Origin: a virus
DNA length: 64,000 bases
IMG/VR virus record: IMGVR_UViG_3300031111_000010
Location: 17,177-81,176 of that record
Reading direction: 5' to 3' (one strand)
Shown here piece by piece: positions 1-50,608 of the stretch (its first letter is position 1; the number at the start of each line of letters is the position of its first letter). The notes below the pieces were generated by a model. It searched no databases. It was not told the DNA's origin and saw only the letters and a program-made list of their open reading frames with translations. Both the position numbers and the translations under genes were made by a program.

Positions 1-372
1 TTTGTTTTTATATTCTATGATACTATTAACAGCTTTCATAAAACATTCATCACTTTTAATCTCAGGATAATCAACAGCAAGAAAATCAACTGTATTCTTT
101 GTAATCTTATCAAATATCTTTAACTCATGTTCTGGAAACTTGTCTATCAAAAACAACTTGATTTCAACAAGCAAATCATCTGCCTGTTTCCTATAGCTTT
201 CAATATCCTTCTTTTTCTCTTTAATCTTTTCTATCTCAACAGTATGATTATAATAGGTACACAACTGAGCAATAATACCTATAATAAATATAACAACACC
301 AATTGTAATAAGTTCAATAGGTCCAATGAACCATGTTACGCAAGCCCAAAGCAAAGCAATAAGATAAATCAT
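1..372 (-). CDS. hypothetical membrane protein, runs off window edge
   Basis: ATG at 372 with AAAGGAG RBS; open to position 1; hydrophobic N-terminus MIYLIALLWACVTWFIG; not in ORF track. Confidence 0.7.
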   Translation of the reverse strand, partial: MIYLIALLWACVTWFIGPIELITIGVVIFIIGIIAQLCTYYNHTVEIEKIKEKKKDIESYRKQADDLLVEIKLFLIDKFPEHELKIFDKITKNTVDFLAVDYPEIKSDECFMKAVNSIIEYKNK

Positions 373-396
373 TAAAATCTCCTTTCATATGAAGCG

Positions 397-425
397 ACCA
401 TACATCTTTTGATATGATCTGTCAA
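397..425 (-). promoter_or_regulatory. sigma70-type promoter
   Basis: TTGACA-17bp-TATGGT upstream of ORF at 372. Confidence 0.65.
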
Positions 426-448
426 TAGAAAAATATAAAAGCTAAGTA

Positions 449-877
449 TTAAACCTCAACCAATATACCCTGTTTATGAATCAACTTCTTATCTCTAATA
501 ACAGTCATAGGTAATAGCATAGCCGTACCCTTTTGTTTTCTATCCTGTTTCAATACAAAAACAAATTTAATCATATTCGTTTTATACCATAGTGTAAATT
601 CTAATTCATTATAATTCAATTCCTTCTTATATAATCCTCTTGGCTTACAGGTATGATTCTTAATACATTCAATATCATCTTTCAAAGTATCTGTATTATT
701 AATAAACTCAGTAAGCATATGATCTAGTTCTTCAATCTTAATACATGGTTTATTTCTTGAGTGATTTAATCTTTCTAATCCAAAATGTATGGATTCTTCT
801 ATATGAGTGATACCATAATTACCAAGAACCATCTTCCATTTATTTAAAAACTCAGTTCTTTCAGATGCAGTAATCAT
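449..877 (-). CDS. hypothetical protein, paralog of 38755..39270, possible RNase-like fold
   Basis: HFGLERLNHSRNKPCI..EL and KGTAMLLPMTVIRDKK align with the 38755 protein. Confidence 0.65.
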   Translation of the reverse strand: MITASERTEFLNKWKMVLGNYGITHIEESIHFGLERLNHSRNKPCIKIEELDHMLTEFINNTDTLKDDIECIKNHTCKPRGLYKKELNYNELEFTLWYKTNMIKFVFVLKQDRKQKGTAMLLPMTVIRDKKLIHKQGILVEV

Positions 878-1041
878 AAAATCTCCCTTTTCAATCGTTT
901 CTCTTGCTCATCTAATTTATCTCTCAACTCAAAAGGATTCTCATGAACATAGGACCATGCATTAATCCCAAACATATCCTGCATTAGACGCTGTTGAGTA
1001 ATATTCACAATAGCACCATTAGTCAGTTCATCTCTAAGCAT
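874..1041 (-). CDS. small hypothetical protein (55 aa)
   Basis: MLRDELTNG...; ATGA overlap with 449..877; below ORF-track cutoff. Confidence 0.55.
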   Translation of the reverse strand: MLRDELTNGAIVNITQQRLMQDMFGINAWSYVHENPFELRDKLDEQEKRLKREIL

Positions 1042-1210
1042 GATCAATTTCCTTTTCTTTTTCTAACTGTTCACAATATTCTTCCCATTTCTTTTCATTA
1101 GGATCATTTTCATTAGGATCATAATCATAATCAACATAATCAGGATCATCATAGTGTTCATCAAACCCATTGCCGTATGCTTCCCTTGCTGCTCTTTCAA
1201 GTTCATTCAT
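1034..1210 (-). CDS. small acidic hypothetical protein (58 aa)
   Basis: MNELERAAREAYGNGFDEHYDDPDY...; GGGAG RBS. Confidence 0.6.
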   Translation of the reverse strand: MNELERAAREAYGNGFDEHYDDPDYVDYDYDPNENDPNEKKWEEYCEQLEKEKEIDHA

Positions 1211-1377
1211 TTAAATTCTCCCTATAATGTCTTAATGATTCCGATCAAGCAATAAGCACAAACACAATAGCAAGTAAGTTTAGCAAAAAGCAAAAACCAC
1301 ACTTCCCCATGACTCAATTTCTTAATTGCTTCTTTCTTATTCAAAAGACCTCCTTGGTTAATGTTAATCATATGCGT

Positions 1378-1407
1378 ATCTTATATCTTTATATATTGGT
1401 CTGTCAA
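1378..1407 (-). promoter_or_regulatory. sigma70-type promoter
   Basis: TTGACA-18bp-TAAGAT. Confidence 0.55.
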
Positions 1408-1637
1408 GAGAAATCTTTAGTGTATATAAAAAATATATAAAATGGTCAAATAATATATATTTTTAGCAAGAAATTATGCATATTTCATACCAAAAACACC
1501 TGAAAACCCGCATGAATAGGGCTTATATATAAAATATGTAATAAAAACAGCTATATAGGGGTGATATATGGGGGGGAATATATGCCGTACCCACCAAGAC
1601 ACGAAAAAAATTGAAAAAGTGCTGTGAGAATGATATC

Positions 1638-2059
1638 TGGCATAGGTCTTGCATCGAATCGCATTCAGAATATATATTTTTTATATACTCTTGATGCTCA
1701 TGTGAATATATAATTTTTATATATCTCATTTTTTTTTATTTTTTTTTTGGTAAGCAAGAGTGATGCCAACTTTCCATTTTGCGTTGCGATGCACAATCAT
1801 GAATTTCCGAAAAAAATCTTTTTATTTTTCCTTTATATATCAGGGTCTTATATATAACGTCTGATAAGATATAATATGTAAAATCGTGAGCTAAGTGCTT
1901 GATATATAAACGAATATAGGTTTTTTGAGGTTTTTTAATGGTAGGCATAATCTACCATAAATAGTGTGTAAGCAACTATCGTGCCAACCCTGTATATCGG
2001 ATATTGGCACATGTATTGCATATATCGCTGAAATTGGCGAAATTGGCATATTCCTTGCA
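1638..2059. promoter_or_regulatory. cluster of five sigma54 (-24/-12) motifs with IHF-like sites
   Basis: TGGCAY-N5-TTGCW at 1638-1653(+), 1753-1768(-), 1971-1986(-), 2005-2020(+), 2044-2059(+); WATCARN4TTR at 1838-1850(+) and 1892-1904(-). Confidence 0.75.
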
Positions 2060-2282
2060 TATAGCCGCATCCATAGGGGTCCACATGGTCCACCAGCGAA
2101 ATCCATAGAACCCATAAGAGCCATAAGCAGAAAGGCACATGCAGATTTTACTGAGTTAATTTTACTTGCAGGGGTGTCTGAGCTTGTGATAGACCGCACT
2201 ATTCGCACACTTTCACTAACTCATTGTCAGATTTTTTTCCAGATTCGCTATATATGAAAATTTTTTGGGAAAATTTTTGAAG

Positions 2283-2438
2283 AAAGTGCCTCAGAATGAT
2301 GTCCAGAGTGACTTTTCTGGTAACTATCTGACTTTTTTAGACATATTTTCAAAGAATCGACCTGAAAACGGATTTTTGACCGTTTTATGACGGTTTAAAA
2401 AAATTTTGGGGAAAAAATCGCAAAAAGTGCCTCAGAAT
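2283..2438. repeat. 15-bp direct repeat in non-coding region
   Basis: AAAGTGCCTCAGAAT at 2283-2297 and 2424-2438, each preceded by a similar AAAATTTT..GGGAAAA tract. Confidence 0.8.
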
Positions 2439-2543
2439 CACTATAATTATAAATATCTGATATCTAAGGAAATATCAAAATATATACAGAAATATATAAA
2501 AAAGTATATAAATTGATATCTTGTTGATTTCATTAATAAAAGT

Positions 2544-2861
2544 CTATGTTGGTGGGGGGTCAAGTATAGAAAATTCCTCAAAGGTAATAAAGTCTTTTTC
2601 TGCAAACCATTTTTCATGCCAACCAAAAGGATAGCCTTTCATTTTATGAGTATAGTTATGGAAATCATATTCTTTAAAGAAATGTGTTTCTCCCATCATC
2701 TCAATCATAGTGTTAGTTAATACCCAATCCAATTTTATTCTATTCAAGGTGATACTCATTCTTATTACACTACCGTCTTTATTCCATTTATCAGCTATAG
2801 GTTTAAAACGATTTTGGAATTGATCTACTGTTATTAAGGTATATTTTATATATTCATTCAT
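2544..2861 (-). CDS. hypothetical protein with near-C-terminal shared motif
   Basis: ends DFITFEEFSI-LDPPPT; ATGA-coupled. Confidence 0.75.
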   Translation of the reverse strand: MNEYIKYTLITVDQFQNRFKPIADKWNKDGSVIRMSITLNRIKLDWVLTNTMIEMMGETHFFKEYDFHNYTHKMKGYPFGWHEKWFAEKDFITFEEFSILDPPPT

Positions 2862-3145
2862 AGCGTAAATTCATCCTTATCAATAAAGTTATCTACAGGT
2901 TCTTCTTTAATCCAATCGTCATGATAAACCCAATGATCATCAGTAAGTTCTTGTACCCATCTATAGCCATTATTGTAATCATGTCTATGCCTACCACCTT
3001 CTATTAATGGTTGTACTTCTATGATGGTTCCAAAGTATCGTATCATGTCTTTATTAATAAAGAAGTTGCCTTTATAATGATAACCATCAGATTCACTTCC
3101 ATCTAAATAATCCAGTTCTGATATATTTTTTAATAATATTTTCAT
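2858..3145 (-). CDS. hypothetical protein with shared C-terminal motif
   Basis: ends NFIDKDEFTL; ATGA-coupled. Confidence 0.8.
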   Translation of the reverse strand: MKILLKNISELDYLDGSESDGYHYKGNFFINKDMIRYFGTIIEVQPLIEGGRHRHDYNNGYRWVQELTDDHWVYHDDWIKEEPVDNFIDKDEFTL

Positions 3146-3522
3146 ACGCTAAACTCACATTGTTTGATGAATCCTATATCTCTATTATGGTACATCGACT
3201 TCCATATATTTCTAAAGTAATTTCTATCCACATCTTTAGTCCATATGCTGTTATGTTGTTTTAAATATCTACCATGGATATCTGTAGCATAATTGGATAT
3301 AAAGAAGATAGCATTAGTATCACCTGTACGTTGCCAGTATTCCCTTATTACATCACGGTACATAAAATCATCCTTGGCATCTATATTAGTCATGAAGGAT
3401 AGACCCTTGTTTTTTATAAAGTCAGTATCAGGACCGGCTGAATGATTTTTATATGGTGGTACATTTAATCTATCATAGTGACCATGGATAAAATCTGAGG
3501 ATTTTTCATTCCAATAACTCAT
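3142..3522 (-). CDS. hypothetical protein with shared C-terminal motif
   Basis: ends GFIKQCEFSV. Confidence 0.8.
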   Translation of the reverse strand: MSYWNEKSSDFIHGHYDRLNVPPYKNHSAGPDTDFIKNKGLSFMTNIDAKDDFMYRDVIREYWQRTGDTNAIFFISNYATDIHGRYLKQHNSIWTKDVDRNYFRNIWKSMYHNRDIGFIKQCEFSV

Positions 3523-13679: not shown

Positions 13680-14059
13680 ACTATTATAATTTCTCCTTCT
13701 GGATAAAATTTTCTGAACTTTTTGAGTGTGTCTTCGCTACCACCAAATTCTCTTTGGAGAACTTCTTTTAATGGTTCATGTGGTCTGACAAGACAAGCTA
13801 TGATAATATCAGAAGTCTTAGCCACTGATGTATTCCTTGCAAAGAATTCTTTTCTGGTTTTTTTCTTAGGTGGAAATAAAAGAATGGGAATGCCATAACC
13901 GAAAGCTATCTTTTCAGCAAAGGCATCCCCACCTTGTGGACATCCACCACTGACTATCCAATCACCTTCTTGATAGATTTCAAAGAAGGCATCATGTACA
14001 AGTTGATAGTCAGTTCTGATATTTCGTTTTCTTGTTCCAATAATTCCTATTTTTTTCAT
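13676..14059 (-). CDS. SLOG/DprA-like Rossmann protein
   Basis: IGIIGTR, IVSGGCPQGGDAFAE, FFARN, GGSEDT. Confidence 0.8.
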   Translation of the reverse strand: MKKIGIIGTRKRNIRTDYQLVHDAFFEIYQEGDWIVSGGCPQGGDAFAEKIAFGYGIPILLFPPKKKTRKEFFARNTSVAKTSDIIIACLVRPHEPLKEVLQREFGGSEDTLKKFRKFYPEGEIIIV

Positions 14060-14060
14060 A

Positions 14061-15272
14061 TCATCCTTTCACAACTGCTAACGGCTTAAGCTCCACGGCT
14101 ATATCTACAAGGTCTTTTTGATTATCCATGACGGTAGAAATATCCTTGTATGCTCCACTTGCCTCATCAAGATCAGATACGTTTCGAATACCATGGACAA
14201 TACCCTGTTCATCCAGCTTCTTAATCTCATCCTTCAGGTTCAACTTCTCCTTGGCCTTTGATCTACTCATCAATCGACCAGAACCATGAGAACAAGACTT
14301 GAAACTTTCAGAATTACCCTTACCAACTACAATGTAGCTCTTGGTTCCCTGACTACCCGGAATGATACCATACTCATCTTCATATGCTCTGGTAGCACCC
14401 TTACGATGCACCAGCACATTCTTACCAAAATGATTCTCCAATGCAGCATAGTTATGATGAATGTTGATATTGGTATTCTTAGCAGCAGTATCAAACTGAA
14501 CATCTACATGGTTTGATATAGCTTCCATTACTCTCTGCATCATCAACTGACGATTAGCCAATGCAAAGTTACAGCAATAGTTCATTTCCTGAAAATACAT
14601 CTTTCCTTCTTTGCTATCGAAAGGAAGAAAAGCTAACTGCCAACTTTTAGGAACATTAGACTGCCATTTTTCATTCAATTCAATAGCAATCTTATTATAG
14701 TGAGTAGCAACCTTATTACCCAAGTTTCTACTACCAGAATGAATCATGATCCAAATGTAGCCATCACTACCCTGCTGGATTTCAATGAAATGATTTCCAC
14801 CACCCAAAGTACCAATCTGCTTCTTAGCACTATCCCATTCATCATAGATAACAGTATTATTGAAGTCAAAAAAATCAACAGGTAAATTGGGAATATTATG
14901 ATCATCTTTATTATGCTTGAAACCAACAGGCACCAGCTTACGGATATCACCCATGATCTTTTTCAAGATGGTCTTATCTAAGCTACCAGCAAACAGGGAA
15001 GTTCTTAAAGCTATCATACCGCAACCGATATCAACACCCACGGCATTAGGCACGATGTAACCCTGAGTAGCCATAACACCACCAATAGGCATACCATAAC
15101 CCTGATGCATATCGGGCATACCAGCAACATGATGGAAAACAAAAGGCAACATAGATAAATGCTCCATCTGTTCAAGAGCACCAGCTTCCACTTCACCTAA
15201 CCATAATTTGATAGGCACTCGATATTCACCATGCTTATATATAACATTGAAATTATTTTTTAACTGTATCAT
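14061..15272 (-). CDS. rtcB: RtcB RNA ligase
   Basis: MPDMHQGYGMPIGG, VGVDIGCG, GTLGGGNHFIE, HSGSR, HHNY, HRKGAT, IPGSQG, SHGSGR, DEASGAYK. Confidence 0.97.
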   Translation of the reverse strand: MIQLKNNFNVIYKHGEYRVPIKLWLGEVEAGALEQMEHLSMLPFVFHHVAGMPDMHQGYGMPIGGVMATQGYIVPNAVGVDIGCGMIALRTSLFAGSLDKTILKKIMGDIRKLVPVGFKHNKDDHNIPNLPVDFFDFNNTVIYDEWDSAKKQIGTLGGGNHFIEIQQGSDGYIWIMIHSGSRNLGNKVATHYNKIAIELNEKWQSNVPKSWQLAFLPFDSKEGKMYFQEMNYCCNFALANRQLMMQRVMEAISNHVDVQFDTAAKNTNINIHHNYAALENHFGKNVLVHRKGATRAYEDEYGIIPGSQGTKSYIVVGKGNSESFKSCSHGSGRLMSRSKAKEKLNLKDEIKKLDEQGIVHGIRNVSDLDEASGAYKDISTVMDNQKDLVDIAVELKPLAVVKG

Positions 15273-16916: not shown

Positions 16917-16932
16917 TGCAGTTGCTGTGCCA
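16917..16932 (-). promoter_or_regulatory. sigma54 promoter
   Basis: TGGCACAGCAACTGCA with exact GG-N10-GC spacing. Confidence 0.75.
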
Positions 16933-17003
16933 AGATTGTAATTTTTTTTATATAGTTATTTCAGTCACTTGAAAAATTAGTATTTTTGATTGGGTAAAAA
17001 ACA

Positions 17004-17039
17004 TGACAAAAATTGTCAAACTTATGACAAAAATTGTCC
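17004..17039. promoter_or_regulatory. tandem palindromic activator (UAS-like) sites
   Basis: TGACAAAAATTGTCA and TGACAAAAATTGTCC, starts 21 bp apart; same pair at 45622-45657. Confidence 0.75.
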
Positions 17040-17071
17040 AGATAGTTATATACTTTACTCCGGTAAATTTG

Positions 17072-17084
17072 TAAGTACTTGATA
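17072..17084 (-). promoter_or_regulatory. IHF-like site
   Basis: TATCAAGTACTTA matches WATCAAN4TTR; lies between UAS pair and sigma54 motif. Confidence 0.6.
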
Positions 17085-17102
17085 TTATTACAAGTGAAAA
17101 GT

Positions 17103-17118
17103 TGGCACAGGGTCTGCA
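17103..17118 (+). promoter_or_regulatory. sigma54 promoter
   Basis: TGGCACAGGGTCTGCA; predicted +1 about 17129, 2 nt before ATG. Confidence 0.75.
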
Positions 17119-17603: not shown

Positions 17604-17636
17604 TTGACAGGGAACATATTGTTTGATATGTTCCCT
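17604..17636 (+). promoter_or_regulatory. sigma70-type promoter overlapped by an inverted repeat
   Basis: TTGACA-17bp-TATGTT; AGGGAACATAT-N6-ATATGTTCCCT. Confidence 0.6.
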
Positions 17637-17664
17637 TCATAACCTCAAAAAAGGAGTGTGTAAC

Positions 17665-18582
17665 ATGACGTTTTTTCAAGCAATCGAAACTAAAGATGTA
17701 AACGTGGCTATGGAAGCAGGTAACCATAACTTTGAAGCTATCAAAGAAGATTTGTTTACTGCTGATGGTCTTCGTATTCCCGATCATGTTGCTGTTCTCA
17801 ATCAAAACACTGGTGATTATTTGGGTACAGTTGGCAGGGGTTACGAACCAGTTCAACCGGAAACATTCTATGAGTTAGCTGATGAGTTCATCGAATCAAC
17901 TGATGCAATGATTGATGGTGTTCTCAATTTCAGGAATGGATCAACTATGGGTCTGTCCTTTCATATCGCAGATCGTGAGTATATCGCTGGTGATCCGATT
18001 TCACTCCGGTTCATGATGGTCAATGGTTTTGATGGTTGGCAGGGTCTGAATGGTTTTGCTCCTACCAATCGGATAGCTTGTCTGAATGTATGTAATTCAT
18101 CCAATCGTGTCTATAACCTGAAGCATACCAAAAATGTTCTCAATCGTGTTCAGGTTGTCAAGAACATGCTCAAGTATTATCAGAATGAGATTGCATCATT
18201 TGATGATAAGATGAATTATCTTGTTGGACATCGTATGAATGAAGCAGAGGCTGTCAAGTGGTTTCGTTCTCTGTTTCCGAAACCTACTTCCCGTAGGTCT
18301 GAAACCATACTGGATAACAAGGTTGCGGTTTTTGTTGATTGTCTATTGCATGGTAGGGGTTCTGAAATTGCTGGTGTTCGTGGAACGTCTTACGGTGCTT
18401 TTCAGGCACTTACTGAGTATATCAACCACCACCGTTCAGTTCGGGTAACAGAAGGTAGAGAAGAAGATGAAGTCCGTTTTGAAGCTATCCATTTTGGTAC
18501 TGGTAACTCTCTTACTCAGCGTGGATTGACTTCTCTTACCACTGGTTTCGGTTTTACTGCTGACGAATTTCGTATCGATTAA
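17665..18582 (+). CDS. DUF932-family protein
   Basis: YLGTVGRGYEPVQP, NGFDG, RIACLN, KHT, GTSYGAFQALTEYINH; AAGGAG RBS. Confidence 0.85.
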   Translation: MTFFQAIETKDVNVAMEAGNHNFEAIKEDLFTADGLRIPDHVAVLNQNTGDYLGTVGRGYEPVQPETFYELADEFIESTDAMIDGVLNFRNGSTMGLSFHIADREYIAGDPISLRFMMVNGFDGWQGLNGFAPTNRIACLNVCNSSNRVYNLKHTKNVLNRVQVVKNMLKYYQNEIASFDDKMNYLVGHRMNEAEAVKWFRSLFPKPTSRRSETILDNKVAVFVDCLLHGRGSEIAGVRGTSYGAFQALTEYINHHRSVRVTEGREEDEVRFEAIHFGTGNSLTQRGLTSLTTGFGFTADEFRID

Positions 18583-21707: not shown

Positions 21708-22453
21708 AAAAAATTTTGCTGAATTGGTATATCACTTACTTCTTCATATTGACAATGTTGGCATTTTACCTTCTGTTCTAATTTCCATCCAAAAGTCATA
21801 TTATCTACTTCTTTTCTTATAGCTTCCATTCCTGCCAGTGGAATGTTCTCTATGAAATACATTCTATCTTTGATATCAATATCACTATCCAATCCAGATG
21901 GTGTTTCGATTTTATCTATTGCACATGCATGAAACATAACCTGAAAGATATATGCTTTCTGAGTATCACTGAGACTTTTTGGGAAGTATTTTGGTTTCAT
22001 ATCTTCTTTCTGGTGTTTTCTTTTTATATGTCTCAGATGCACTTTTATCTGACCAAGTTCTACAATATGATTTTCTTCACTATCTAAATTTGTTAATTCC
22101 AATTCATCCAGATTTACTCTGTTCAATGATTGAGATTTACATTTAGGACAATCAAATTTAAACTCAAGTACTTCTCCTTTTGTCTTCTTACGAATTTCCA
22201 TCAATAAGAACATTTTATCATATAGATAAAGATCATCCATATTGAACCCTTCAGATGAAACACTTGATGATATCAAATCATCAAGTGCCTGTTCTTGTAC
22301 TACATAATTTGTTTCATTCTCATAAGTGAGAAGTCTTTTAATTTGACCCGTTGTTAATGGTTTGAATTTAACTACTTTTTTACTTCCCGGTAATTGACAT
22401 TCAAACTCATATACATTTACATAATCTAAAAAATTCGGTTTGTTATCTGACAT
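21701..22453 (-). CDS. baseplate hub assembly protein, T4 gp26-like
   Basis: LPGSKKVVKFKPL, LLMEIRKKTKGE, CPKC, CQHC, terminal NFF. Confidence 0.8.
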   Translation of the reverse strand: MSDNKPNFLDYVNVYEFECQLPGSKKVVKFKPLTTGQIKRLLTYENETNYVVQEQALDDLISSSVSSEGFNMDDLYLYDKMFLLMEIRKKTKGEVLEFKFDCPKCKSQSLNRVNLDELELTNLDSEENHIVELGQIKVHLRHIKRKHQKEDMKPKYFPKSLSDTQKAYIFQVMFHACAIDKIETPSGLDSDIDIKDRMYFIENIPLAGMEAIRKEVDNMTFGWKLEQKVKCQHCQYEEVSDIPIQQNFFG

Positions 22454-43921: not shown

Positions 43922-44281
43922 TCAAGCATAAGCATTGATTTGTTTAATATATTTATAATCCCAAATAAACCACATCCCATGCTTCTTATATCTTTGCCAT
44001 CTGTTCTTTTCGATGTCAAAGATACTTCCATCACCATAATGATAAAACTTTTTATCCTCAGTTACAGTATATCGAATGCCTTGATTTTTCTTACCTACTT
44101 TTTGACGTTCAGCCAGAAGATATTCATATGCTTCATTAACATATAGGAATTGTTCTGGTCTACCACCATGATCAGGATGGAATTTAAGGCATAAGAGGCG
44201 ATATTTTCGCTTCAAAGCATCTTCTGTGACCTTGGATATATCTTCTACCTTAAATAGCCTTAAATAGCCTCTAACGTCCAT
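43922..44281 (-). CDS. J-domain (DnaJ-like) protein
   Basis: LKRKYRLLCLKFHPDHGG..F..VNEAYEYL. Confidence 0.88.
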   Translation of the reverse strand: MDVRGYLRLFKVEDISKVTEDALKRKYRLLCLKFHPDHGGRPEQFLYVNEAYEYLLAERQKVGKKNQGIRYTVTEDKKFYHYGDGSIFDIEKNRWQRYKKHGMWFIWDYKYIKQINAYA

Positions 44282-44915: not shown

Positions 44916-45446
44916 TTACTGGTTGATTACTTCGGACTCAACCTTACCTTTCGGACCAAGAACAAAGCTCATGTAAGCATCGTTCATATATCCACGAACA
45001 AAGATTTTCTTTCCAAGTTTGCTAACAGAATCAATATTTTCTGTAACTGCCAGCAGATGATTGTATGCTTTCCACTGTGAAGGAGTGAACTCACTTTTGG
45101 ACATCTTGTAGTCACCATACCGATCTTTAACTACGATAAACTCATCATTTTCATCCCACTCGACTTCATCAAAACCGATACCAGCTACCATGATCAGCGT
45201 ACCATCTTCCATCTCCATCAGGTCACCAACACTGGTAGACCGACTTTCCTCTACCTTATAGACACCATCATTTTCCCACCATGCGGTATCGATGTGATTG
45301 GTTTTCTGAAAGGCAACACCAAGATCGTTTCCAACGACTTCAGCTACCAGTTTATAATTGGATTTAACAGGCTTGTAAGTACCCTTTTCGGCAAAGTGAA
45401 GATTGCTGTTAATAGCCCAATTGGTAGTGTGATAAACTTTGATCAT
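44916..45446 (-). CDS. hypothetical early protein (YodL-like RSxSVGD motif)
   Basis: RSTSVGDL; likely start MIKVY with AAGGAG. Confidence 0.7.
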   Translation of the reverse strand: MIKVYHTTNWAINSNLHFAEKGTYKPVKSNYKLVAEVVGNDLGVAFQKTNHIDTAWWENDGVYKVEESRSTSVGDLMEMEDGTLIMVAGIGFDEVEWDENDEFIVVKDRYGDYKMSKSEFTPSQWKAYNHLLAVTENIDSVSKLGKKIFVRGYMNDAYMSFVLGPKGKVESEVINQ

Positions 45447-45499: not shown

Positions 45500-45515
45500 T
45501 GCAGACCGTGTGCCA
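45500..45515 (-). promoter_or_regulatory. sigma54 promoter
   Basis: TGGCACACGGTCTGCA, near-identical to 17103-17118. Confidence 0.75.
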
Positions 45516-45621
45516 AGATTGAAAAAAATCATAAAAAAATATAAGTAGTTGGATTATAAAGAAAAAAACCCAATAGGGATCAAATGACCCCCATTAGGCT
45601 TTTCGTATTTTAGGGAATTTG

Positions 45622-45657
45622 TGACAATTTTTGTCAAACATATGACAATTTTTGTCA
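45622..45657. promoter_or_regulatory. tandem palindromic activator (UAS-like) sites
   Basis: TGACAATTTTTGTCA x2, starts 21 bp apart. Confidence 0.75.
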
Positions 45658-47169
45658 TAAGTCTATTTCAATATTCGAATCAATCTCTTTAGACTTATTT
45701 GCTACATACTTAAATTTCATCTTGTTTTTAATGGTTTCCAGATTACATTTTTCACCCCACAAAAACTGAATATGTTCAAGGGTTTTTTGTGCATACTCAG
45801 GATCAAGATCAGCACCAATATGTTCATGTTTGAGTAACAATTCACCCTGTTTGTGATAATTACCATCCATAACGAACACTTTTGGAATACCACTATGTGC
45901 AAAACTTCTAATAATAATTTGGCAGATTTCTTTTGCTGTATTATCTGTGATTACTACTTCTTCCATAAAAACATTGGATTGAATTGCATACATATATAAA
46001 TCCAATTTTCTAACCAGTTTTGGAGTTAAGAAGTTATGCATAAACATCCAATCATTACTTGTACGGAGAACTTTAAACATCTTCTCCATACCCTTCATAG
46101 ATTTATCATCGTAGTTCATCTTTAAATCATGGTCGGTAGTTTCATCATAATCTTTACCATGTTGACCTTTATTCCAACGATCTACAATATCTTCCCACAT
46201 TTCACATCCTATCAAATAGGGATTCATGCTGAAAGGATTTTTTGATTTAACAAGAGAATTGCTATAGTTACATTCAGCATGTTCAGTAGCTGTAAGCAAT
46301 CCTTCCCGAAATAACTGCCTGAGAATTCTTTCATGCCAGAAGGTAGCAAATCCTTCATTCATATATTTGGTTTTGATATTCGGCCAAACATACTGACCCC
46401 ATGCTCTGATAATTTCAAGAATATCTTTTTGCCATGTTGAAAGGTTTCGGGAATGATCAATAACATACCTGATTAAATCTTCAGTAGGTTCAACAGGAGT
46501 TTTATTCTTCAAAGCAACATACAGAGCATTGTTGTATCTTTCCCTTTCCATATCGGCCTGAGAATCATCTTCAAATAAATCCATGAATTCAGTAACAGAT
46601 TTATCATGTTTCTTCTGTTTCTTCTGTTCAAATATACGTTCTATTTTTTCATCTTCAGTTTCTTGACTTAACCAAGGATTTGAATGAAGCATAATTGAAT
46701 GACCAGCATCAATAGTAGATTCAACCAAATCGATACCATACTTATTAATATAATCCTCAATTCGATTGGATGCATTGCTTAATCTACTAGCAATGTTCTC
46801 ATCATTCTCAACATGATACTGATTCATATTGAAGAAAGCAACATGACCTACAACGTGAGCAATAATCAATGCCTGTAGAGCAATTGTATTATCTTTCATT
46901 AGATATGCTCTTGCAGGATTGGTATTGACTACTACTTCATAAGGTAGACCAGCACCTATTTTCTCATAGATAGTTCGTTGTTTTTCATAATCCCTTCCGA
47001 ATTTCCATGATCGAATCTGACCCGGAATTCCATATGCCATTATCTCAAACATCTTTTCAGCAGGAATGACATCGAATTCAATATCACAGAATTCCAGACC
47101 ATTTTCTTTTGCAATTTCATAAATACGCTGTTCTATTTTTTGTAGTCTTTTTAATTCACTATTTTGCAT
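45655..47169 (-). CDS. spoVR: SpoVR/YcgB family protein
   Basis: WKFGRDY, YEVVVNTNP.RAYLMKDN, AHVVGH, TKYMNEGFATFWH, NPYLIG. Confidence 0.95.
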   Translation of the reverse strand: MQNSELKRLQKIEQRIYEIAKENGLEFCDIEFDVIPAEKMFEIMAYGIPGQIRSWKFGRDYEKQRTIYEKIGAGLPYEVVVNTNPARAYLMKDNTIALQALIIAHVVGHVAFFNMNQYHVENDENIASRLSNASNRIEDYINKYGIDLVESTIDAGHSIMLHSNPWLSQETEDEKIERIFEQKKQKKHDKSVTEFMDLFEDDSQADMERERYNNALYVALKNKTPVEPTEDLIRYVIDHSRNLSTWQKDILEIIRAWGQYVWPNIKTKYMNEGFATFWHERILRQLFREGLLTATEHAECNYSNSLVKSKNPFSMNPYLIGCEMWEDIVDRWNKGQHGKDYDETTDHDLKMNYDDKSMKGMEKMFKVLRTSNDWMFMHNFLTPKLVRKLDLYMYAIQSNVFMEEVVITDNTAKEICQIIIRSFAHSGIPKVFVMDGNYHKQGELLLKHEHIGADLDPEYAQKTLEHIQFLWGEKCNLETIKNKMKFKYVANKSKEIDSNIEIDL

Positions 47170-48514
47170 CGGTTTCCTCTCTTTCTGGATGGTGTAAACT
47201 CAACATGTGCTGAAGACAAGGCCAAATATGACTTTTATCTTTAATAACTGACAATAAGAAATGTAAATCATTATTGATCCAAAACTTACCTTCCTTACTC
47301 AAAGTAGATTCCTGAAATTTCCAATTCTTTAGACACTCAGGAAGTAGAGTAGAGAAACCATACTCATACTGTATATCACTATCACCAAACAAATCGTGAT
47401 ATGGTTTAATCTCAACATAAGAAAGCATATTGATTTTTTTAGCAACCATATCTTCCATTGATGATACTGCTTCCTTTGGTTCCCAATCTTCACCATCAGA
47501 GCAGTATACAGCATAAATGTTCCATTCATCAAGTGGATATTCAGTATCAATGATATAGTTGGCTTTATCAAATGCAGACTTAGCAACTGTACCACCTGTT
47601 TCACCACCATAGAAGAAAGTATTTTCATCTACTTCTAATGCACGATCAGTATGTTGGATAAATCGAATTTCAACTGCTTCATACTGCTTACGGAGAAAAT
47701 TAATCATCCAAAACAATAGACTTTTGACAAGATATTTTTTATCGGGAGTCATTGAACCTGATACATCCATCATAGCAAATACTACTGCCTTTGAACAAAT
47801 CTCTTTTTCTTCTTCGATCTGTTTGTATCGTAAATCATCATCATGAATGAGGAAACCAGTAGGTTCATTACCATTTAATTCACCATCCACTATGATACGA
47901 ACAGCTTCTTCAATATCACCTTTGCCTTGCTGTAATGCTTTACAGGCATCTTCATATGAACAATCTGTTTGTTCCATTACTTCTCTAACAAACATGATGT
48001 TACGCTTTGCTGCTTCTCTCATAGTACGTTTTTTATGAATCCTTGCAAACGTACCTTTTTTGGAGATGGATTCAAACTTCCATCCTTTGGGTATTTCAAT
48101 GGAGTTTTTCTTTTTCGGATCAAGCCAAGGTAAACCTAAATCTTCCATCATTACATCAATCAACTGATCAATATCAATTTCAACTTCCATATCACCAGCA
48201 CCATGACCTTGACCAGCACCTTGACCTTGATCACCACCTTGTTTTGGTCTTCTACCAATAACATCACCAGCTTGACCATCACCTTGACCAATACCACCAC
48301 CACCTTTACCGGGAGTAGCATGGATAAAACGATAGTCTTTTAATCCCTTTACTGGTACTCTGACTTTCTTTTTACCTTCTTGGGTAATGATATTCTCAGT
48401 ACCAATGACATCTCTTACATTTTTTCGGATAGCTTCATCTATTTTCTCTTGATGTCTTTTGGCATCAGTAACCCCTTTTTTGGTATCCCATGTTTCATGA
48501 TATACAATTGTCAT
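47159..48514 (-). CDS. yeaH: YeaH/YhbH (DUF444) vWA protein
   Basis: DAKRHQEKI, Gly-rich tract, DDLRY, MMDVSGSM, ETGGT, SDGEDW. Confidence 0.93.
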   Translation of the reverse strand: MTIVYHETWDTKKGVTDAKRHQEKIDEAIRKNVRDVIGTENIITQEGKKKVRVPVKGLKDYRFIHATPGKGGGGIGQGDGQAGDVIGRRPKQGGDQGQGAGQGHGAGDMEVEIDIDQLIDVMMEDLGLPWLDPKKKNSIEIPKGWKFESISKKGTFARIHKKRTMREAAKRNIMFVREVMEQTDCSYEDACKALQQGKGDIEEAVRIIVDGELNGNEPTGFLIHDDDLRYKQIEEEKEICSKAVVFAMMDVSGSMTPDKKYLVKSLLFWMINFLRKQYEAVEIRFIQHTDRALEVDENTFFYGGETGGTVAKSAFDKANYIIDTEYPLDEWNIYAVYCSDGEDWEPKEAVSSMEDMVAKKINMLSYVEIKPYHDLFGDSDIQYEYGFSTLLPECLKNWKFQESTLSKEGKFWINNDLHFLLSVIKDKSHIWPCLQHMLSLHHPEREETDAK

Positions 48515-48535
48515 AAGTTAGTCCTTTATATTTTA

Positions 48536-48611
48536 TGGTGGATGGGAAGGGATTCGAACCCTCAACCTCTGCCTTGCAAGGGCATTGCTCTCCCGTTGAG
48601 CTACCGCACCC
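48536..48611 (-). tRNA. tRNA-Ala(UGC)
   Basis: G3-U70 pair, CT-TGC-AA loop, GGTTCGAATCC, encoded ACCA; one C-C mismatch in acceptor stem. Confidence 0.88.
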
Positions 48612-48625
48612 ACATTCAACTTATA

Positions 48626-50608
48626 TTATGATTCTCTCCGCAAAATCTCACCGACGAACCCAAGGATAGCAGAGGCGCAATGTTTACAGTACCCCTTCTT
48701 CTCCAAGGTTCTCAATGCACGACTTCTTCTCGCTTTAACCTTAGAATCAGTAGAAACCGTATTGGCAATCGAAAGCTGAACAACATTCTTAAGATCATTC
48801 ATCAGCTTTTTCTCAATTGCATCTTTCAAGGGTTTATATGTATCCCACTTCCATTCCTTACCATCTTCCAAGGTATCTGACTTATAAACATAAACACCTT
48901 TTCGGAATTCACGTTTGGATTCCATGGGTACAGGGATTAGTTCTTCTACTGCTCTCATGATCTTTTCATCAGGATCACGATATTCACCAGTGATATCATC
49001 GAATACTGTTTCTTCTTTACAGAAGGCTTTACAGTTAATATCATATCGATTGAACAGTTCATTTGCCTGATCTTCAAAGGCATGGATAAAGGCTTTGCTA
49101 ACTTCTCTTTTAGCAAATTCCTTGTATTCCGAAACAACTGAATCTTCTTTCGAAATGAGAAGTTGCATATACTTCTCTTTATCCTTTTCATTACCACCCA
49201 TATGATGCTCAAAGTTATCCCTTAAAGCACGAATCATATCAAGAGCAGTAATACATCCTTTGTATCTTTCATCACCAGTTTCGACGTTATCTTTCTGACC
49301 AAGTGCAATGTTGATAGCATTGGTGATAAATCGTGGTGATATACCTGTCATACATTCACCGTTTTCTCGACCTTCTTGCCGAATCAGTTTGATGTCTTTG
49401 TCTTTACCCTTTGAGAACTCATCAAGGAACTCATTGTTGTAAAGTTTCATCTTCTGAATCGGATTGATTTTCTTAGAAGGATACAAACGAGTCAGAATTG
49501 CAAACTGAGCAGCAACTTCCAGAGCACCCGGAGAAATATGGATATCAGAGAACTCAGATTCTGCAATCAACTTCTGATAGATTTTAATTTCATCAGCAAT
49601 GGTATCATTCCATGGCACCTTGACATAATACATACGGTCATGGAGTGCTTCATTTGCTGGATCATTTCTGAACTTGTCGAATTCAGTCTGGTTAGTATGA
49701 CTGAGAATCAACTCATCCAAATACATCTGAGGAAATCCCGGTGTTTTGATAACCTGTTCCTGTGCAAGAGTAATCAACACATGATGGAACTTGATATCAG
49801 CTTTGAGAATTTCGATATACTCAATGACCCCACGGTTAGCTACTTGAAGCTCACCATCAAACTGATATGCTCTTGGATCACTTTCCGAATACATATGCAG
49901 TTTAGCCATATTTACTCTACCAATCAACTCAGTAATATCTTGAGATTTAGGATCAGAAGGAGTAAATGTACCAATGGAAGTTCTACGCTGTTCGGATATT
50001 TTAACCAGTTCCACAGGAAATTCATGCCAACGGGCAAAACCATCTTTGTCGGTAAATTCGCTGTCAAGACGCAACTGGCATACAGGACATAACTCACCTT
50101 CGATTTTTACACCCAACTTCTTATTCCACTCATCACGAAACTGTTGTGGAATTGCATGGAGTGGGTCTTCATGGATAGGACAACCTTGGATAGCAAACAA
50201 AGGAGTATCATCCATTTCCAGACCACGTTTGATTAATGCAGCAATGGTGGACTTACCACCAGAAACCGGACCCATCAACATCAGGATACGTTTACCTGTT
50301 TCGGTTCTCCTTGCTGCTGCCTTGAGGAACTTCATCATATCATGAATCGGTTCGTAGCTACCAAAGATTTTACCATCAAAGAACTTGTATCTTACCAAGT
50401 CTTCATAGCCTTTGGTTTTACGGTTTTCTGGAACAGGTTCAGTTCCATGTTTCATGATCATATTGTAAATTCTGGCAGGAGCAAGTGTAGAAATCTCAGG
50501 ATGAGCAATTACCTCATTCATGTATTCTATCAACTGACCTTCCCATTTAGTAGGACCAACCTGTTCCTGTTGTGATAGCATTAATTCCCTAAAATCTTCA
50601 TTCATCAT
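48626..50608 (-). CDS. prkA: PrkA/YeaG AAA+ serine kinase/ATPase
   Basis: GPVSGGKST, CPIHEDPL, GELCPVC, DPRAYQFDGELQVANRG, NEALHDR, GISPRF, GYCKHCA. Confidence 0.96.
   Translation of the reverse strand: MMNEDFRELMLSQQEQVGPTKWEGQLIEYMNEVIAHPEISTLAPARIYNMIMKHGTEPVPENRKTKGYEDLVRYKFFDGKIFGSYEPIHDMMKFLKAAARRTETGKRILMLMGPVSGGKSTIAALIKRGLEMDDTPLFAIQGCPIHEDPLHAIPQQFRDEWNKKLGVKIEGELCPVCQLRLDSEFTDKDGFARWHEFPVELVKISEQRRTSIGTFTPSDPKSQDITELIGRVNMAKLHMYSESDPRAYQFDGELQVANRGVIEYIEILKADIKFHHVLITLAQEQVIKTPGFPQMYLDELILSHTNQTEFDKFRNDPANEALHDRMYYVKVPWNDTIADEIKIYQKLIAESEFSDIHISPGALEVAAQFAILTRLYPSKKINPIQKMKLYNNEFLDEFSKGKDKDIKLIRQEGRENGECMTGISPRFITNAINIALGQKDNVETGDERYKGCITALDMIRALRDNFEHHMGGNEKDKEKYMQLLISKEDSVVSEYKEFAKREVSKAFIHAFEDQANELFNRYDINCKAFCKEETVFDDITGEYRDPDEKIMRAVEELIPVPMESKREFRKGVYVYKSDTLEDGKEWKWDTYKPLKDAIEKKLMNDLKNVVQLSIANTVSTDSKVKARRSRALRTLEKKGYCKHCASAILGFVGEILRRES

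What the first reader, a model, noticed from the sequence alone, without database searches (positions are those of the whole stretch)
1638..2059. Array of five sigma54 promoter motifs in gene-free DNA
Seen: TGGCATAGGTCTTGCA (1638+), TGGCATCACTCTTGCT (1753-), TGGCACGATAGTTGCT (1971-), TGGCACATGTATTGCA (2005+), TGGCATATTCCTTGCA (2044+), all with exact GG-N10-GC spacing, plus two IHF-consensus sites (1838, 1892). A rough estimate at about 30% GC gives under 0.1 such motifs by chance in the whole window. Known: sigma54 holoenzyme binds -24/-12 sites as stable closed complexes. None precedes a credible ORF. Inference: a DNA sponge for host sigma54-RNAP, promoters for small RNAs, or a loading site at an origin/genome end. 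Suggests a sigma54-rich host such as Desulfobacterota.
Basis: partly seen in the sequence, partly recalled or inferred. Interest (0 to 1): 0.8.

Follow-up and report, generated by a model that had tools for sequence, protein, structure and literature searches.

The report
Sigma-54 docking-site cluster in phage
A large uncultured T4-like phage from marine sediment carries five textbook landing sites for the bacterial sigma-54 RNA polymerase in one gene-free island, apart from seven other sigma-54 promoters that copy the host's pilus-gene switch, so it clearly uses this host enzyme, but what the island itself does is still open.

Summary
Five exact TGGCAY-N5-TTGCW motifs lie at 1638+, 1753-, 1971-, 2005+ and 2044+ (0.12 expected; 0 of 100 shuffles reach five). 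They sit in a 1,172-bp ORF-free gap and are the only strict copies in about 213 kb of this phage: the 81-kb record plus a 132-kb record that overlaps its end by 126 identical bases.

The motif is meaningful in this phage. Seven looser sigma-54 promoters elsewhere each have a TGACAAAAATTGTCA palindrome, paired in six of the seven, about 60-200 bp upstream, and those read in full are followed by a ribosome site and an ORF. One also has an IHF-consensus match in between. Close relatives keep this layout. In bacteria the same paired palindrome precedes type IV pilin genes, which marks a PilR-type enhancer.

The five array sites are a separate class. They have a strict -12 box, no PilR palindrome, no shared start region and no ORF, Rfam family or terminator downstream. 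Neither contig encodes an activator or a sigma-54.

Best reading: real docking sites or poised promoters for the host sigma-54 holoenzyme. Sink, antisense-promoter and origin roles are not resolved, and conservation in relatives could not be tested. This scan has noted similar arrays in other phages, and I found no paper describing them.

The parts
1372..2543 (.). ORF-free island between two leftward blocks of small genes. It holds all five strict sigma-54 motifs.
   Evidence: It contains three of the eight least stable 80-bp windows of the 81-kb record. A Logan contig spanning 1196-2835 has depth 349, against 146-181 in the flanks.
1638..1653 (+). Site P1, TGGCATAGGTCTTGCA. Predicted start near 1664, running rightward against the gene flow into an 86% A+T stretch.
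   Evidence: The start is inferred from the usual -12 to +1 distance (recalled).
1753..1768 (-). Site P2, TGGCATCACTCTTGCT. Predicted start near 1742, running leftward with the gene flow. It is convergent with P1, with 99 bp between them.
1971..1986 (-). Site P3, TGGCACGATAGTTGCT. Predicted start near 1960, leftward. It stands back to back with P4, with 18 bp between TGCCA and TGGCA.
2005..2020 (+). Site P4, TGGCACATGTATTGCA. Predicted start near 2031, rightward.
   Evidence: It shares a 25-nt repeat at 80% identity with P5 (D4).
2044..2059 (+). Site P5, TGGCATATTCCTTGCA. Predicted start near 2070, rightward into a G+C-richer, ORF-free stretch (2060-2240).
   Evidence: It shares a 30-nt repeat at 73% identity with P1 (D3). 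Downstream there is no Rfam family, no terminator and no stable fold.
1838..1850 (+). IHF-consensus match TATCAGGGTCTTA.
   Evidence: It is one arm of inverted repeat I3.
1892..1904 (-). IHF-consensus match TATCAAGCACTTA. It differs by one letter from the IHF match inside the enhancer-dependent promoter region at 17072-17084.
1938..1958 (.). Palindrome ATGGTAG-N7-CTACCAT, unique in the 81-kb record. It is a candidate binding site for an unknown activator or other protein and lies about 75-130 bp upstream of P4 and P5.
   Evidence: The role is inferred only.
1668..1747 (.). 86% A+T stretch between the convergent sites P1 and P2, with two TATATA-N5-TATATA palindromes (1671-1687, 1707-1723). It is the third least stable 80-bp window of the 81-kb record.
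1378..1407 (-). Sigma-70-type promoter TTGACA-N18-TAAGAT for the leftward operon that starts at 1371.
1570..1576 (+). G7 run 61 bp upstream of P1. A second run (G6) lies at 2554-2559, at the other edge of the island.
   Evidence: G/C runs of 5 or more flank 83 of 120 sigma-54 arrays in other viral contigs, against 25% of random windows of the same size.
2257..2438 (+). Direct repeats ending in AAAGTGCCTCAGAAT (2257-2297 and 2398-2438). A third, weaker copy at 1603-1634 abuts P1. Function unknown.
   Evidence: D1, D8.
16917..17118 (.). Comparison unit outside the finding. Divergent sigma-54 promoters (16917-16932 minus, 17103-17118 plus) flank a palindrome pair at 17004 and 17025, with an IHF match at 17072-17084.
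45500..45657 (-). Comparison unit outside the finding. Palindrome pair at 45622 and 45643, then TGGCACACGGTCTGCA (45500-45515), then a ribosome site and the ATG at 45446 of a 176-aa ORF. The layout is conserved in relative G004.

Best explanation
The five motifs are genuine binding sites for the host's sigma-54 RNA polymerase holoenzyme. They are gathered in a control island inside the phage's block of small early-type genes.

They form a class of their own. Each has a strict -24/-12 consensus and none has a PilR-type enhancer. This sets them apart from the seven enhancer-dependent sigma-54 promoters that drive protein genes elsewhere in the same genome.

Most likely the island holds the holoenzyme in closed, poised complexes, helped by IHF bending. 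It would fire only when an activator reaches it, either from solution or from the 1938-1958 palindrome. In that case two sites (1753-, 1971-) would feed the leftward operon, and three (1638+, 2005+, 2044+) would send polymerase against the gene flow as noncoding or antisense transcription.

Shown: the motifs, their clustering, their class difference, and that this phage uses sigma-54 promoters. Inferred: binding, poising, activation and any transcripts. I put the identity as sigma-54 sites at about 0.85 and this particular mechanism at about 0.4.
For: 1. Clustering: 5 strict motifs in 422 bp, 0.12 expected per window, and none elsewhere in about 213 kb of the phage.

2. Internal positive control. 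Four looser sites in the 81-kb record and three in companion contig G513 each lie about 60-200 bp downstream of TGACAAAAATTGTCA palindromes. Six of the seven have a pair spaced 20-21 bp; the seventh has one detected copy. The four in G000 were read in full and have a ribosome site and an ATG, and the 45-nt flanks of the three in G513 show ribosome-site-like purine runs.

3. Relatives G003 and G004 (major capsid protein 95% and 93% identical) keep palindrome + promoter + gene. In G004 the unit sits at the same place, after SpoVR and before the ortholog.

4. In bacteria the paired palindrome marks pilin promoters. Of the 120 listed stretches, 28 have a sigma-54 motif within 400 bp. I examined 26 of those 28, and 17 of the 26 have a type IV pilin as the first ORF. 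Three of 3 tested ORFs hit PF07963. In L366 a REC-Sigma54_activat-HTH_8 gene sits directly upstream. The host therefore has sigma-54 and the phage is read by it.

5. IHF-consensus matches lie between the sites, one nearly identical to the match at 17072.

6. P2 and P3 face the next operon.

7. The island is carried at about twice the depth of its flanks in the source metagenome, on one contig with no differences. This suggests that co-occurring variants share it unchanged.

8. Sigma-54 promoters in a phage have a precedent in Pseudomonas phage YuA (passage in 10.1101/2023.10.13.562163).
Against: No enhancer of the phage's own PilR type lies in or near the island; the nearest is about 6 kb away. 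Neither contig encodes an activator (PF00158) or a sigma-54 DNA-binding domain.

Three of the five sites face no gene. No ORF, Rfam family, terminator or stable fold lies downstream of them.

P3 and P4 are only 18 bp apart back to back, which leaves no room for a shared enhancer between them.

The array sites lack the conserved TATATAGGCAAA start region of the seven working-looking promoters.

The array was not found in any relative. Across 163 loci (1.9 Mb) near capsid and RtcB homologs there were 6 strict motifs, 3 of them in loci that had been fetched for the motif, and no cluster. None of 45 whole relative records has a cluster. None of 41 phage records with PilR-type pairs has more than 3 sites. 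No relative covering the syntenic locus was available, so selection on the sites is untested.

There is no expression or binding data.
Confidence: 0.45

Rival explanations
1. DNA sink or timer. The five strict, enhancer-less sites exist to soak up sigma-54 (alone or with core polymerase) rather than to make RNA. As the phage genome replicates, the number of sites outgrows the small sigma-54 pool. This would switch off host sigma-54 regulons, including the pilin gene, and the phage's own seven PilR-type promoters.
For: All five sites match the strict consensus, while none of the seven gene-linked sites in this phage has TTGC at -12. There is no enhancer, no gene and no RNA signal downstream of three of them. 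Neither contig encodes an activator. Dense arrays at 26-29 bp spacing, too close for independent promoters, occur in many unrelated viral contigs. Sigma-54 holoenzyme binds DNA in a transcriptionally inactive state, and E. coli has many silent sites (abstract of PMC4591121).
Against: Five sites per genome is a small sink compared with the 8-26-site arrays seen elsewhere. Spacings here (115, 218, 34 and 39 bp start to start) are promoter-like rather than packed. Two sites are correctly oriented for the downstream operon. IHF-consensus matches make more sense for looping than for titration. A sink would also starve the phage's own sigma-54 promoters. The recalled low copy number of sigma-54 comes from E. 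coli, not from this host.
Confidence: 0.22
2. T4-style replication origin. As in T4 oriF and oriG (recalled: a promoter followed by a DNA-unwinding element, whose transcript stays as an R-loop primer), the convergent sites P1 and P2 bracket an easily melted A+T stretch, and transcription from them primes replication.
For: The 1668-1747 stretch lies just downstream of both P1 and P2. It is the third least stable 80-bp window of 81 kb, and two more of the eight least stable windows lie in the same island. The stretch carries A+T palindromes. It is a long noncoding island in a T4-type genome.
Against: A+T-rich intergenic DNA is ordinary in a 31% G+C phage. There are no iterons or origin-protein sites, and G+C skew shows no turn here. 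A sigma-54 promoter without an activator cannot open, so it is a poor primer source. Arrays in other phages show no such unwinding element between sites.
Confidence: 0.1
3. Relic or recombination scar. The sites are duplicated leftovers of former promoters, or a shared noncoding cassette at which gene blocks are exchanged between strains, with no present role for sigma-54.
For: The sites are pairwise related by local duplications: P1/P5, P4/P5 and P2/P3 (D3, D4, D7). The island is shared at double depth while its flanks split into variants. No relative with the array was found.
Against: All five copies keep every one of the 11 specified consensus positions while their spacers and flanks differ. 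That pattern is expected under selection on the motif rather than under decay. Identical sharing between variants also argues for constraint or recent spread.
Confidence: 0.1
4. The motif is the operator of a phage-encoded DNA-binding protein that only happens to resemble the sigma-54 consensus.
For: No activator is visible, and three sites have no gene.
Against: The conserved letters are exactly the sigma-54 -24 and -12 boxes at the exact spacing, with variable letters between. The same core is used in seven complete enhancer-dependent promoters in this genome. Unrelated phages with very different G+C content carry the same motif in arrays.
Confidence: 0.05

Closest known systems
Bacterial enhancer-dependent sigma-54 (RpoN) promoters (consensus TGGCAC-N5-TTGCW, recalled), for example the pilA promoter activated by PilR in Geobacter sulfurreducens (passages of PMC2725144) and Pseudomonas aeruginosa (passages of PMC6058289)
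   Same: Exact -24/-12 boxes and spacing. IHF-consensus matches lie nearby. The same genome carries seven complete pilA-like units.
   Different: The five array sites have no PilR-type enhancer. Three face no gene. They are clustered in both orientations within 422 bp of noncoding phage DNA.
Sigma-54-dependent promoters of Pseudomonas phage YuA (Ceyssens et al. 2008, recalled; passage in bioRxiv 10.1101/2023.10.13.562163)
   Same: A phage that relies on host sigma-54 for part of its transcription.
   Different: The YuA promoters, as recalled, are single promoters in front of gene blocks in a siphovirus. Here a T4-type myovirus has an extra gene-free cluster of enhancer-less sites.
Silent or intragenic sigma-54 binding sites of E. 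coli (Bonocora et al. 2015, PMC4591121; abstract seen)
   Same: Holoenzyme sites that need not give a transcript.
   Different: Those sites are scattered singly inside genes of a bacterium, not clustered in phage noncoding DNA.
Sigma-54 site arrays noted by this scan in other uncultured phages (AI notes e1-3539627, e1-5652392, e1-6084232, e1-5406878, e1-3486078, e1-5838169)
   Same: Same motif, noncoding setting, both orientations, no activator gene. My own scan found at least 120 viral stretches with tandem pairs.
   Different: This array is small and loosely spaced (34-218 bp, against the common 26-29 bp). The back-to-back gap is 18 rather than 20 bp. It coexists with a PilR-type regulon, which 49 of 50 array-bearing records that I checked lack.
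T4 replication origins oriF (uvsY) and oriG (gene 34): promoter plus downstream unwinding element (recalled)
   Same: A promoter-type site directly followed by one of the least stable stretches of the genome, in a T4-type phage.
   Different: The promoter class is sigma-54, not MotA-dependent. There is no evidence of R-loop or origin activity.

Membership tests
Sigma-54 (-24/-12) promoter | GG and GC dinucleotides exactly 10 bp apart within TGGCAY-N5-TTGCW | tested here: met
   5 of 5 sites match exactly; 0.12 expected by chance.
Sigma-54 (-24/-12) promoter | Lies upstream of, and points toward, a gene or RNA gene | tested here: inconclusive
   P2 and P3 point to the operon starting at 1371, but from 370 and 590 nt away and with a sigma-70-type promoter in between. 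P1, P4 and P5 have no ORF, Rfam family or terminator downstream.
Sigma-54 (-24/-12) promoter | Upstream enhancer for an activator (bEBP), often with an IHF site between | tested here: inconclusive
   No PilR-type palindrome lies in the island. IHF-consensus matches are at 1838 and 1892. The unique palindrome at 1938-1958 is only a candidate.
Sigma-54 (-24/-12) promoter | The host has sigma-54 and the phage is transcribed by it | tested here: met
   The evidence is indirect. Seven complete enhancer-promoter units lie in the same genome, those read in full with a gene, and the layout is conserved in relatives G003 and G004. The enhancer is identical to that of Desulfobacterales pilin promoters.
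Sigma-54 (-24/-12) promoter | Binding by the holoenzyme and activator- and ATP-dependent initiation | not testable with these tools
   Needs EMSA or footprinting, in vitro transcription or 5'-end mapping.
PilR-dependent pilA-type promoter | Paired TGACA-N5-TGTCA palindromes about 50-200 bp upstream | tested here: not met
   No such palindrome lies within 1372-2543 with up to 1 mismatch in the half-sites; the nearest match (410-424, one mismatch) lies about 950 bp outside the island. The seven other promoters of this phage do have palindromes.
Transcription-factor decoy array | Several high-affinity sites with no regulated target, numerous relative to the factor | tested here: inconclusive
   The sites match the strict consensus and three have no target. 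Site-to-factor ratios are unknown.
T4-type origin (promoter plus unwinding element) | Promoter immediately followed by an easily unwound stretch | tested here: met
   1668-1747, between P1 and P2, ranks third among non-overlapping 80-bp windows of 81 kb.
T4-type origin (promoter plus unwinding element) | Persistent R-loop and initiation of replication at the site | not testable with these tools
   No replication data. G+C skew shows no turn here.

The most novel reading that the evidence does not exclude
The island is a copy-number-driven sigma-54 sink, coupled to the phage's hijack of the host pilus regulator. Early in infection a single phage genome uses the host's PilR and sigma-54 for its seven pilA-like promoters. 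PilR and sigma-54 are bound to be active in piliated cells, which may be the susceptible ones if the phage uses pili as receptor. As genomes multiply, the five strict enhancer-less sites per copy, together with the enhancer copies, would titrate sigma-54 and PilR. This would shut off that gene class and the host pilin gene. The result would be a DNA-encoded timer and a block to superinfection through loss of pili.
Probability: 0.15. Interest if true: 0.85.

Novelty: new variant of a known kind. Interest (0 to 1): 0.62.

Why it matters
Sigma-54 transcription is almost unstudied in phages; YuA is the one precedent I could document. This genome is a clean case. The same motif appears in two forms side by side in a nearly complete 213-kb T4-type genome that has no activator and no sigma-54 of its own. 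One form is seven complete promoters that copy the host pilin switch. The other is one gene-free cluster of stricter, enhancer-less sites.

That contrast makes the open question about phage sigma-54 arrays testable: are they promoters, a polymerase sink, or something else? The seven enhancer-linked promoters serve as built-in controls for binding and transcription assays. The exact enhancer match also points to Desulfobacterales as the likely host group of an uncultured sediment phage lineage.

Tried and rejected
Small RNA downstream of P4/P5 or P1. Rfam at gathering score found only tRNAs in the window. A permissive Rfam search of 1300-2600 gave two sub-threshold chance-level hits. Folds of 2060-2250 on both strands are no more stable than shuffles (z +1.28 and +1.18). 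No terminator-like site lies in 1-3200. I rejected the small RNA as unsupported, not as disproved.

Host-derived origin of the G+C-richer stretch 1950-2260. In 401 genomes of the class that holds G097 there were only 20-30-nt chance-level matches.

A second copy of the island. None exists in the 81-kb record, and there is no similarity to any fetched locus.

Relatives covering the locus:
- DNA search of isolated phages found no match.
- Three flanking proteins gave no relatives in viral contigs.
- Neighbourhoods of capsid and RtcB relatives hold no array.
- I searched 5 of the 80 capsid-relative records and 40 of the 80 RtcB-relative records whole, picking the longest contigs. No cluster was found.
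- The metagenome scan found only 44-63% relatives on short contigs, none with the motif.
- An architecture pattern (two TTGGCAY-N5-TTGCATAT units) hit 5 unrelated phages.

Link between arrays and PilR-type enhancers in general. There were 2 single palindromes in 1.02 Mb of the 120 array loci. Of 50 whole array-bearing records, 1 has such a site. These were 50 of the 120, mostly those whose contig was longer than the fetched locus. None of 41 records with paired palindromes has more than 3 sigma-54 motifs. I rejected a general link.

Phage-exclusive tandem pairs. The same tandem pattern occurs in 4 of 401 genomes of the candidate host class, so I do not claim exclusivity.

Expression. No RNA holder is listed for this DNA; the only holder is one marine-sediment DNA run, which may be the source. 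In the laid contigs, one contig joins 1080 to 2155 with only 21 letters on its shorter side. That is too weak to call a deletion variant.

Genome end. Rejected for a T4-type headful phage, with the island internal in the joined map.

Pilin count. In one search I examined 26 of the 28 loci that had a sigma-54 motif near the palindrome pair; L341 and L372 were left out by oversight. My notebook says 18 pilins, but the recount from the output is 17.

Supplementary files of papers were not asked for. The supplements of PMC2725144 and PMC4591121 may list site tables that bear on the PilR site and on silent sites.
Full report
**The observation**

The window is the right-hand 64 kb of an 81,176-bp IMG/VR virus record. 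The pattern TGGCAYNNNNNTTGCW is expected 0.12 times in the window, and none of 100 dinucleotide-preserving shuffles gave more than one match. No further strict copy exists in the whole record. With one mismatch allowed there are ten matches against 3.5 expected. Eight of the ten are accounted for below. The motifs lie in a 1,172-bp stretch (1372-2543) without a credible ORF. This stretch sits between two runs of small leftward genes.

**The phage**

It is a distant T4-type myovirus. It has a Gp23-type major capsid protein, a T4-type portal, a T4-type large terminase and a tail sheath. Its capsid protein is under 35% identical to that of any isolated phage. It also carries PrkA, DUF444, SpoVR and RtcB. 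Late genes are preceded by TATAAATA, and several small genes by TTGACA-N17/18-TAnnnT. Ribosome sites are of the AGGAG type (read). The only public run that holds this DNA is a marine-sediment metagenome.

**The other half of the genome**

A 132,451-bp viral contig (G513) overlaps the first 126 bases of the record at 100% identity, end to end. The two are complementary in content. The capsid gene is only in the record, and the family-B DNA polymerase is only in G513. CheckV's estimates are 36% and 66%. I therefore treat them as two pieces of one genome of about 213 kb. This is an inference; the second junction was not found. G513 has no strict sigma-54 motif, since the looser pattern gave three hits and none has TTGC. 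All five strict sites of the genome thus lie within 422 bp.

**This phage is read by sigma-54**

Relaxing the -12 box to NTGCW adds four sites in the record and three in G513. Every one of the seven lies about 60-200 bp downstream of the palindrome TGACAAAAATTGTCA. In six of the seven the palindrome is paired, with copies 20-21 bp apart; the seventh has one detected copy. I read the four in the record in full, and each is followed by a ribosome site and an ATG. For the three in G513 I saw only 45-nt flanks, which carry ribosome-site-like purine runs. At 16917-17118 two divergent promoters share one palindrome pair. An exact IHF-consensus match (17072-17084) lies between that pair and the plus-strand promoter.

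The two closest relatives with usable contigs keep the layout. G003 and G004 have capsid proteins 95% and 93% identical. In G004 the palindrome pair and promoter sit between SpoVR and the ortholog of the 176-aa ORF, as in the window, although the DNA in between differs. More distant relatives (G001, G002, G005) lack both the palindrome and the motif.

**What the palindrome is**

My one scan of bacterial and archaeal genomes looked for two TGACA-N5-TGTCA units 5-17 bp apart. Of these, 28 have a sigma-54 motif within 400 bp. I examined 26 of the 28, omitting L341 and L372 by oversight. In 17 of the 26 the first ORF after the promoter begins with the type IV pilin leader. Three of three tested ORFs hit the N-terminal methylation motif PF07963. 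In a Desulfobacteraceae genome a receiver-Sigma54_activat-HTH_8 regulator gene lies directly upstream of the palindromes. This matches the pilR-pilA arrangement described for Geobacter sulfurreducens (passages of PMC2725144).

The exact 15-letter palindrome occurs two to four times in each of four genomes, in pairs in each. Their record titles are Desulfatirhabdium butyrativorans, Desulfatitalea sp., a 'Deltaproteobacteria bacterium' from sediment, and one whose title I did not see. So seven phage promoters copy the host's PilR-type pilin switch, and the host is probably a member of the Desulfobacterota. The large G+C gap (phage 31-36%, these bacteria 44-55%) is a caution. I reached this reading. 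One search then showed that the scan had already noted the same wiring in other phages, and one search showed that another first-reader note covers 16917-17118 of this window.

**The array is a different class**

None of the five array sites has the palindrome. With one mismatch allowed in the half-sites there is no match inside the island; the nearest PilR-type enhancer site is about 6 kb away. All five have TTGC at -12. None of the seven enhancer-linked promoters of this phage does; they have C, G or A before TGCA. Five of those seven also share a start region, TATATA(G/A)GCAA, and a sixth has a weaker version of it. The array sites lack this region.

The array sites are related pairwise by short local duplications: P1/P5, P4/P5 and P2/P3. 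Yet they keep all eleven specified consensus letters while spacers and flanks differ.

Their geometry is as follows.
- P1 and P2 converge across 99 bp of 86% A+T DNA. This stretch carries two TATATA-N5-TATATA palindromes and is the third least stable 80-bp window of the record.
- P3 and P4 stand back to back, 18 bp apart.
- P5 follows P4 by 39 bp start to start.
- Two IHF-consensus matches in inverted orientation lie between P2 and P3. One differs by a single letter from the match at 17072.
- A unique palindrome, ATGGTAG-N7-CTACCAT, lies at 1938-1958.
- P2 and P3 point with the gene flow toward the operon at 1371, which also has its own sigma-70-type promoter at 1407-1378.
- P1, P4 and P5 point the other way, into DNA without an ORF, Rfam family, terminator or stable fold.

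**No activator**

Neither the record nor G513 gives any match to the sigma-54 interaction domain PF00158, or to the sigma-54 DNA-binding domain, at E up to 1. Five relatives' records also have no PF00158 match. With about the whole genome in hand, the phage most likely depends on host sigma-54 and host activators.

**Conservation**

This is the weak point. I could not fetch any close relative that covers the locus; the details are under Tried and rejected. The only indirect hint comes from the laid contigs of the source run. One 1,640-nt contig covers 1196-2835 without a difference at depth 349, while the flanking contigs have depths of 146 and 170-181. Either two co-occurring variants share the island unchanged while their flanks differ, or the island is present twice. 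No second copy exists in the 81 kb.

**The wider picture**

A scan of IMG/VR for two tandem motifs 10-40 bp apart reached its limit at 120 stretches. Of these, 80 have three or more strict sites within 500 bp. Same-strand spacing peaks at 26-29 bp, divergent pairs at 26 and convergent pairs at 21. A run of five or more G or C lies within 120 bp of the array in 83 of 120 loci, against 25% of random windows of equal size. The island here has G7 at 1570 and G6 at 2554. None of these contigs is related to this phage: only two weak protein matches were found.

PilR-type palindromes are not a general companion of arrays, and phages with PilR-type pairs do not generally have arrays. Tandem pairs also occur in bacteria, in 4 of 401 genomes of the candidate host class, so I make no claim that they are exclusive to phages. 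This scan has reported such arrays on other DNA before. Those notes are leads, not evidence.

**Papers**

Three searches for sigma-54 promoters in phages found no description of such arrays.
- The YuA precedent rests on one passage plus my recollection of Ceyssens et al. 2008.
- A putative phage sigma-54-like protein in Pectobacterium phage Q19 is mentioned in passages of PMC7693777.
- Silent sigma-54 binding in E. coli rests on the abstract of PMC4591121.
- PilR biology rests on passages of PMC6058289 and PMC2725144.

**Verdict**

The identity of the motifs as host sigma-54 sites is well supported by the phage's own seven enhancer-dependent promoters. The function of the enhancer-less cluster remains open. 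I favour poised docking sites or promoters in an early control island (about 0.4-0.45), followed by a sigma-54 sink (about 0.2), a T4-style origin (about 0.1) and a relic or cassette (about 0.1). It is a new variant of a known kind. Its main value is that one genome offers both classes of site for a direct experimental comparison.

Noticed in passing
window 16917-17118; 45500-45657; genome 12579-12805 (left of the window); G513 13811-13946, 22022-22144, 131548-131669: Seven sigma-54 promoters carry TGACAAAAATTGTCA palindromes upstream, paired in six of the seven. This is the motif found before bacterial type IV pilin genes, so the phage appears to borrow the host pilus regulator PilR. Five of the seven share a conserved start region, TATATA(G/A)GCAA. 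The ORFs they drive have no family matches.
   Followed up: yes
genome positions 2-127 of the record, and G513 positions 1-126: The 81-kb record and a 132-kb IMG/VR contig overlap by 126 identical bases end to end and have complementary gene content (capsid against DNA polymerase). Together they give about 213 kb of what is probably one genome.
   Followed up: partly
window 1196-2835: In the source run's contigs the noncoding island sits on one contig at about twice the depth of its flanks (349 against 146-181). This means either sharing between strain variants or a second copy. One weak contig joins 1080 to 2155.
   Followed up: partly
loci L006-L125 (other viral contigs): Runs of five or more G or C lie within 120 bp of sigma-54 arrays in 83 of 120 loci, against 25% of random windows. 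Array spacing peaks at 26-29 bp on the same strand, 26 bp for divergent pairs and 21 bp for convergent pairs.
   Followed up: partly
L086 2030-4640: An unrelated viral contig has pairs of sigma-54 motifs before successive genes. Each pair is followed by two CTGCCATTTTGGCAG palindromes, which may be a different enhancer or operator system.
   Followed up: no
window 45655-50608 and 14061-15272: The T4-type phage carries PrkA, DUF444 and SpoVR in a row, plus RtcB. In enterobacteria (recalled) their homologs belong to stress and sigma-54-linked regulons.
   Followed up: no
window 1603-1634, 2257-2297, 2398-2438: There are three copies of a repeat ending in AAAGTGCCTCAGAAT within the island, one of them abutting site P1. 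No function was found.
   Followed up: partly
window 43922-44281 and 17623-18582: A small DnaJ-domain protein lies downstream in the same leftward gene run as the 45500 promoter. A DUF932 protein lies next to the divergent sigma-54 unit.
   Followed up: no
L429 2214-2275: A RAGATH-18 RNA match (75 bits) lies in an unrelated array-bearing viral contig.
   Followed up: no
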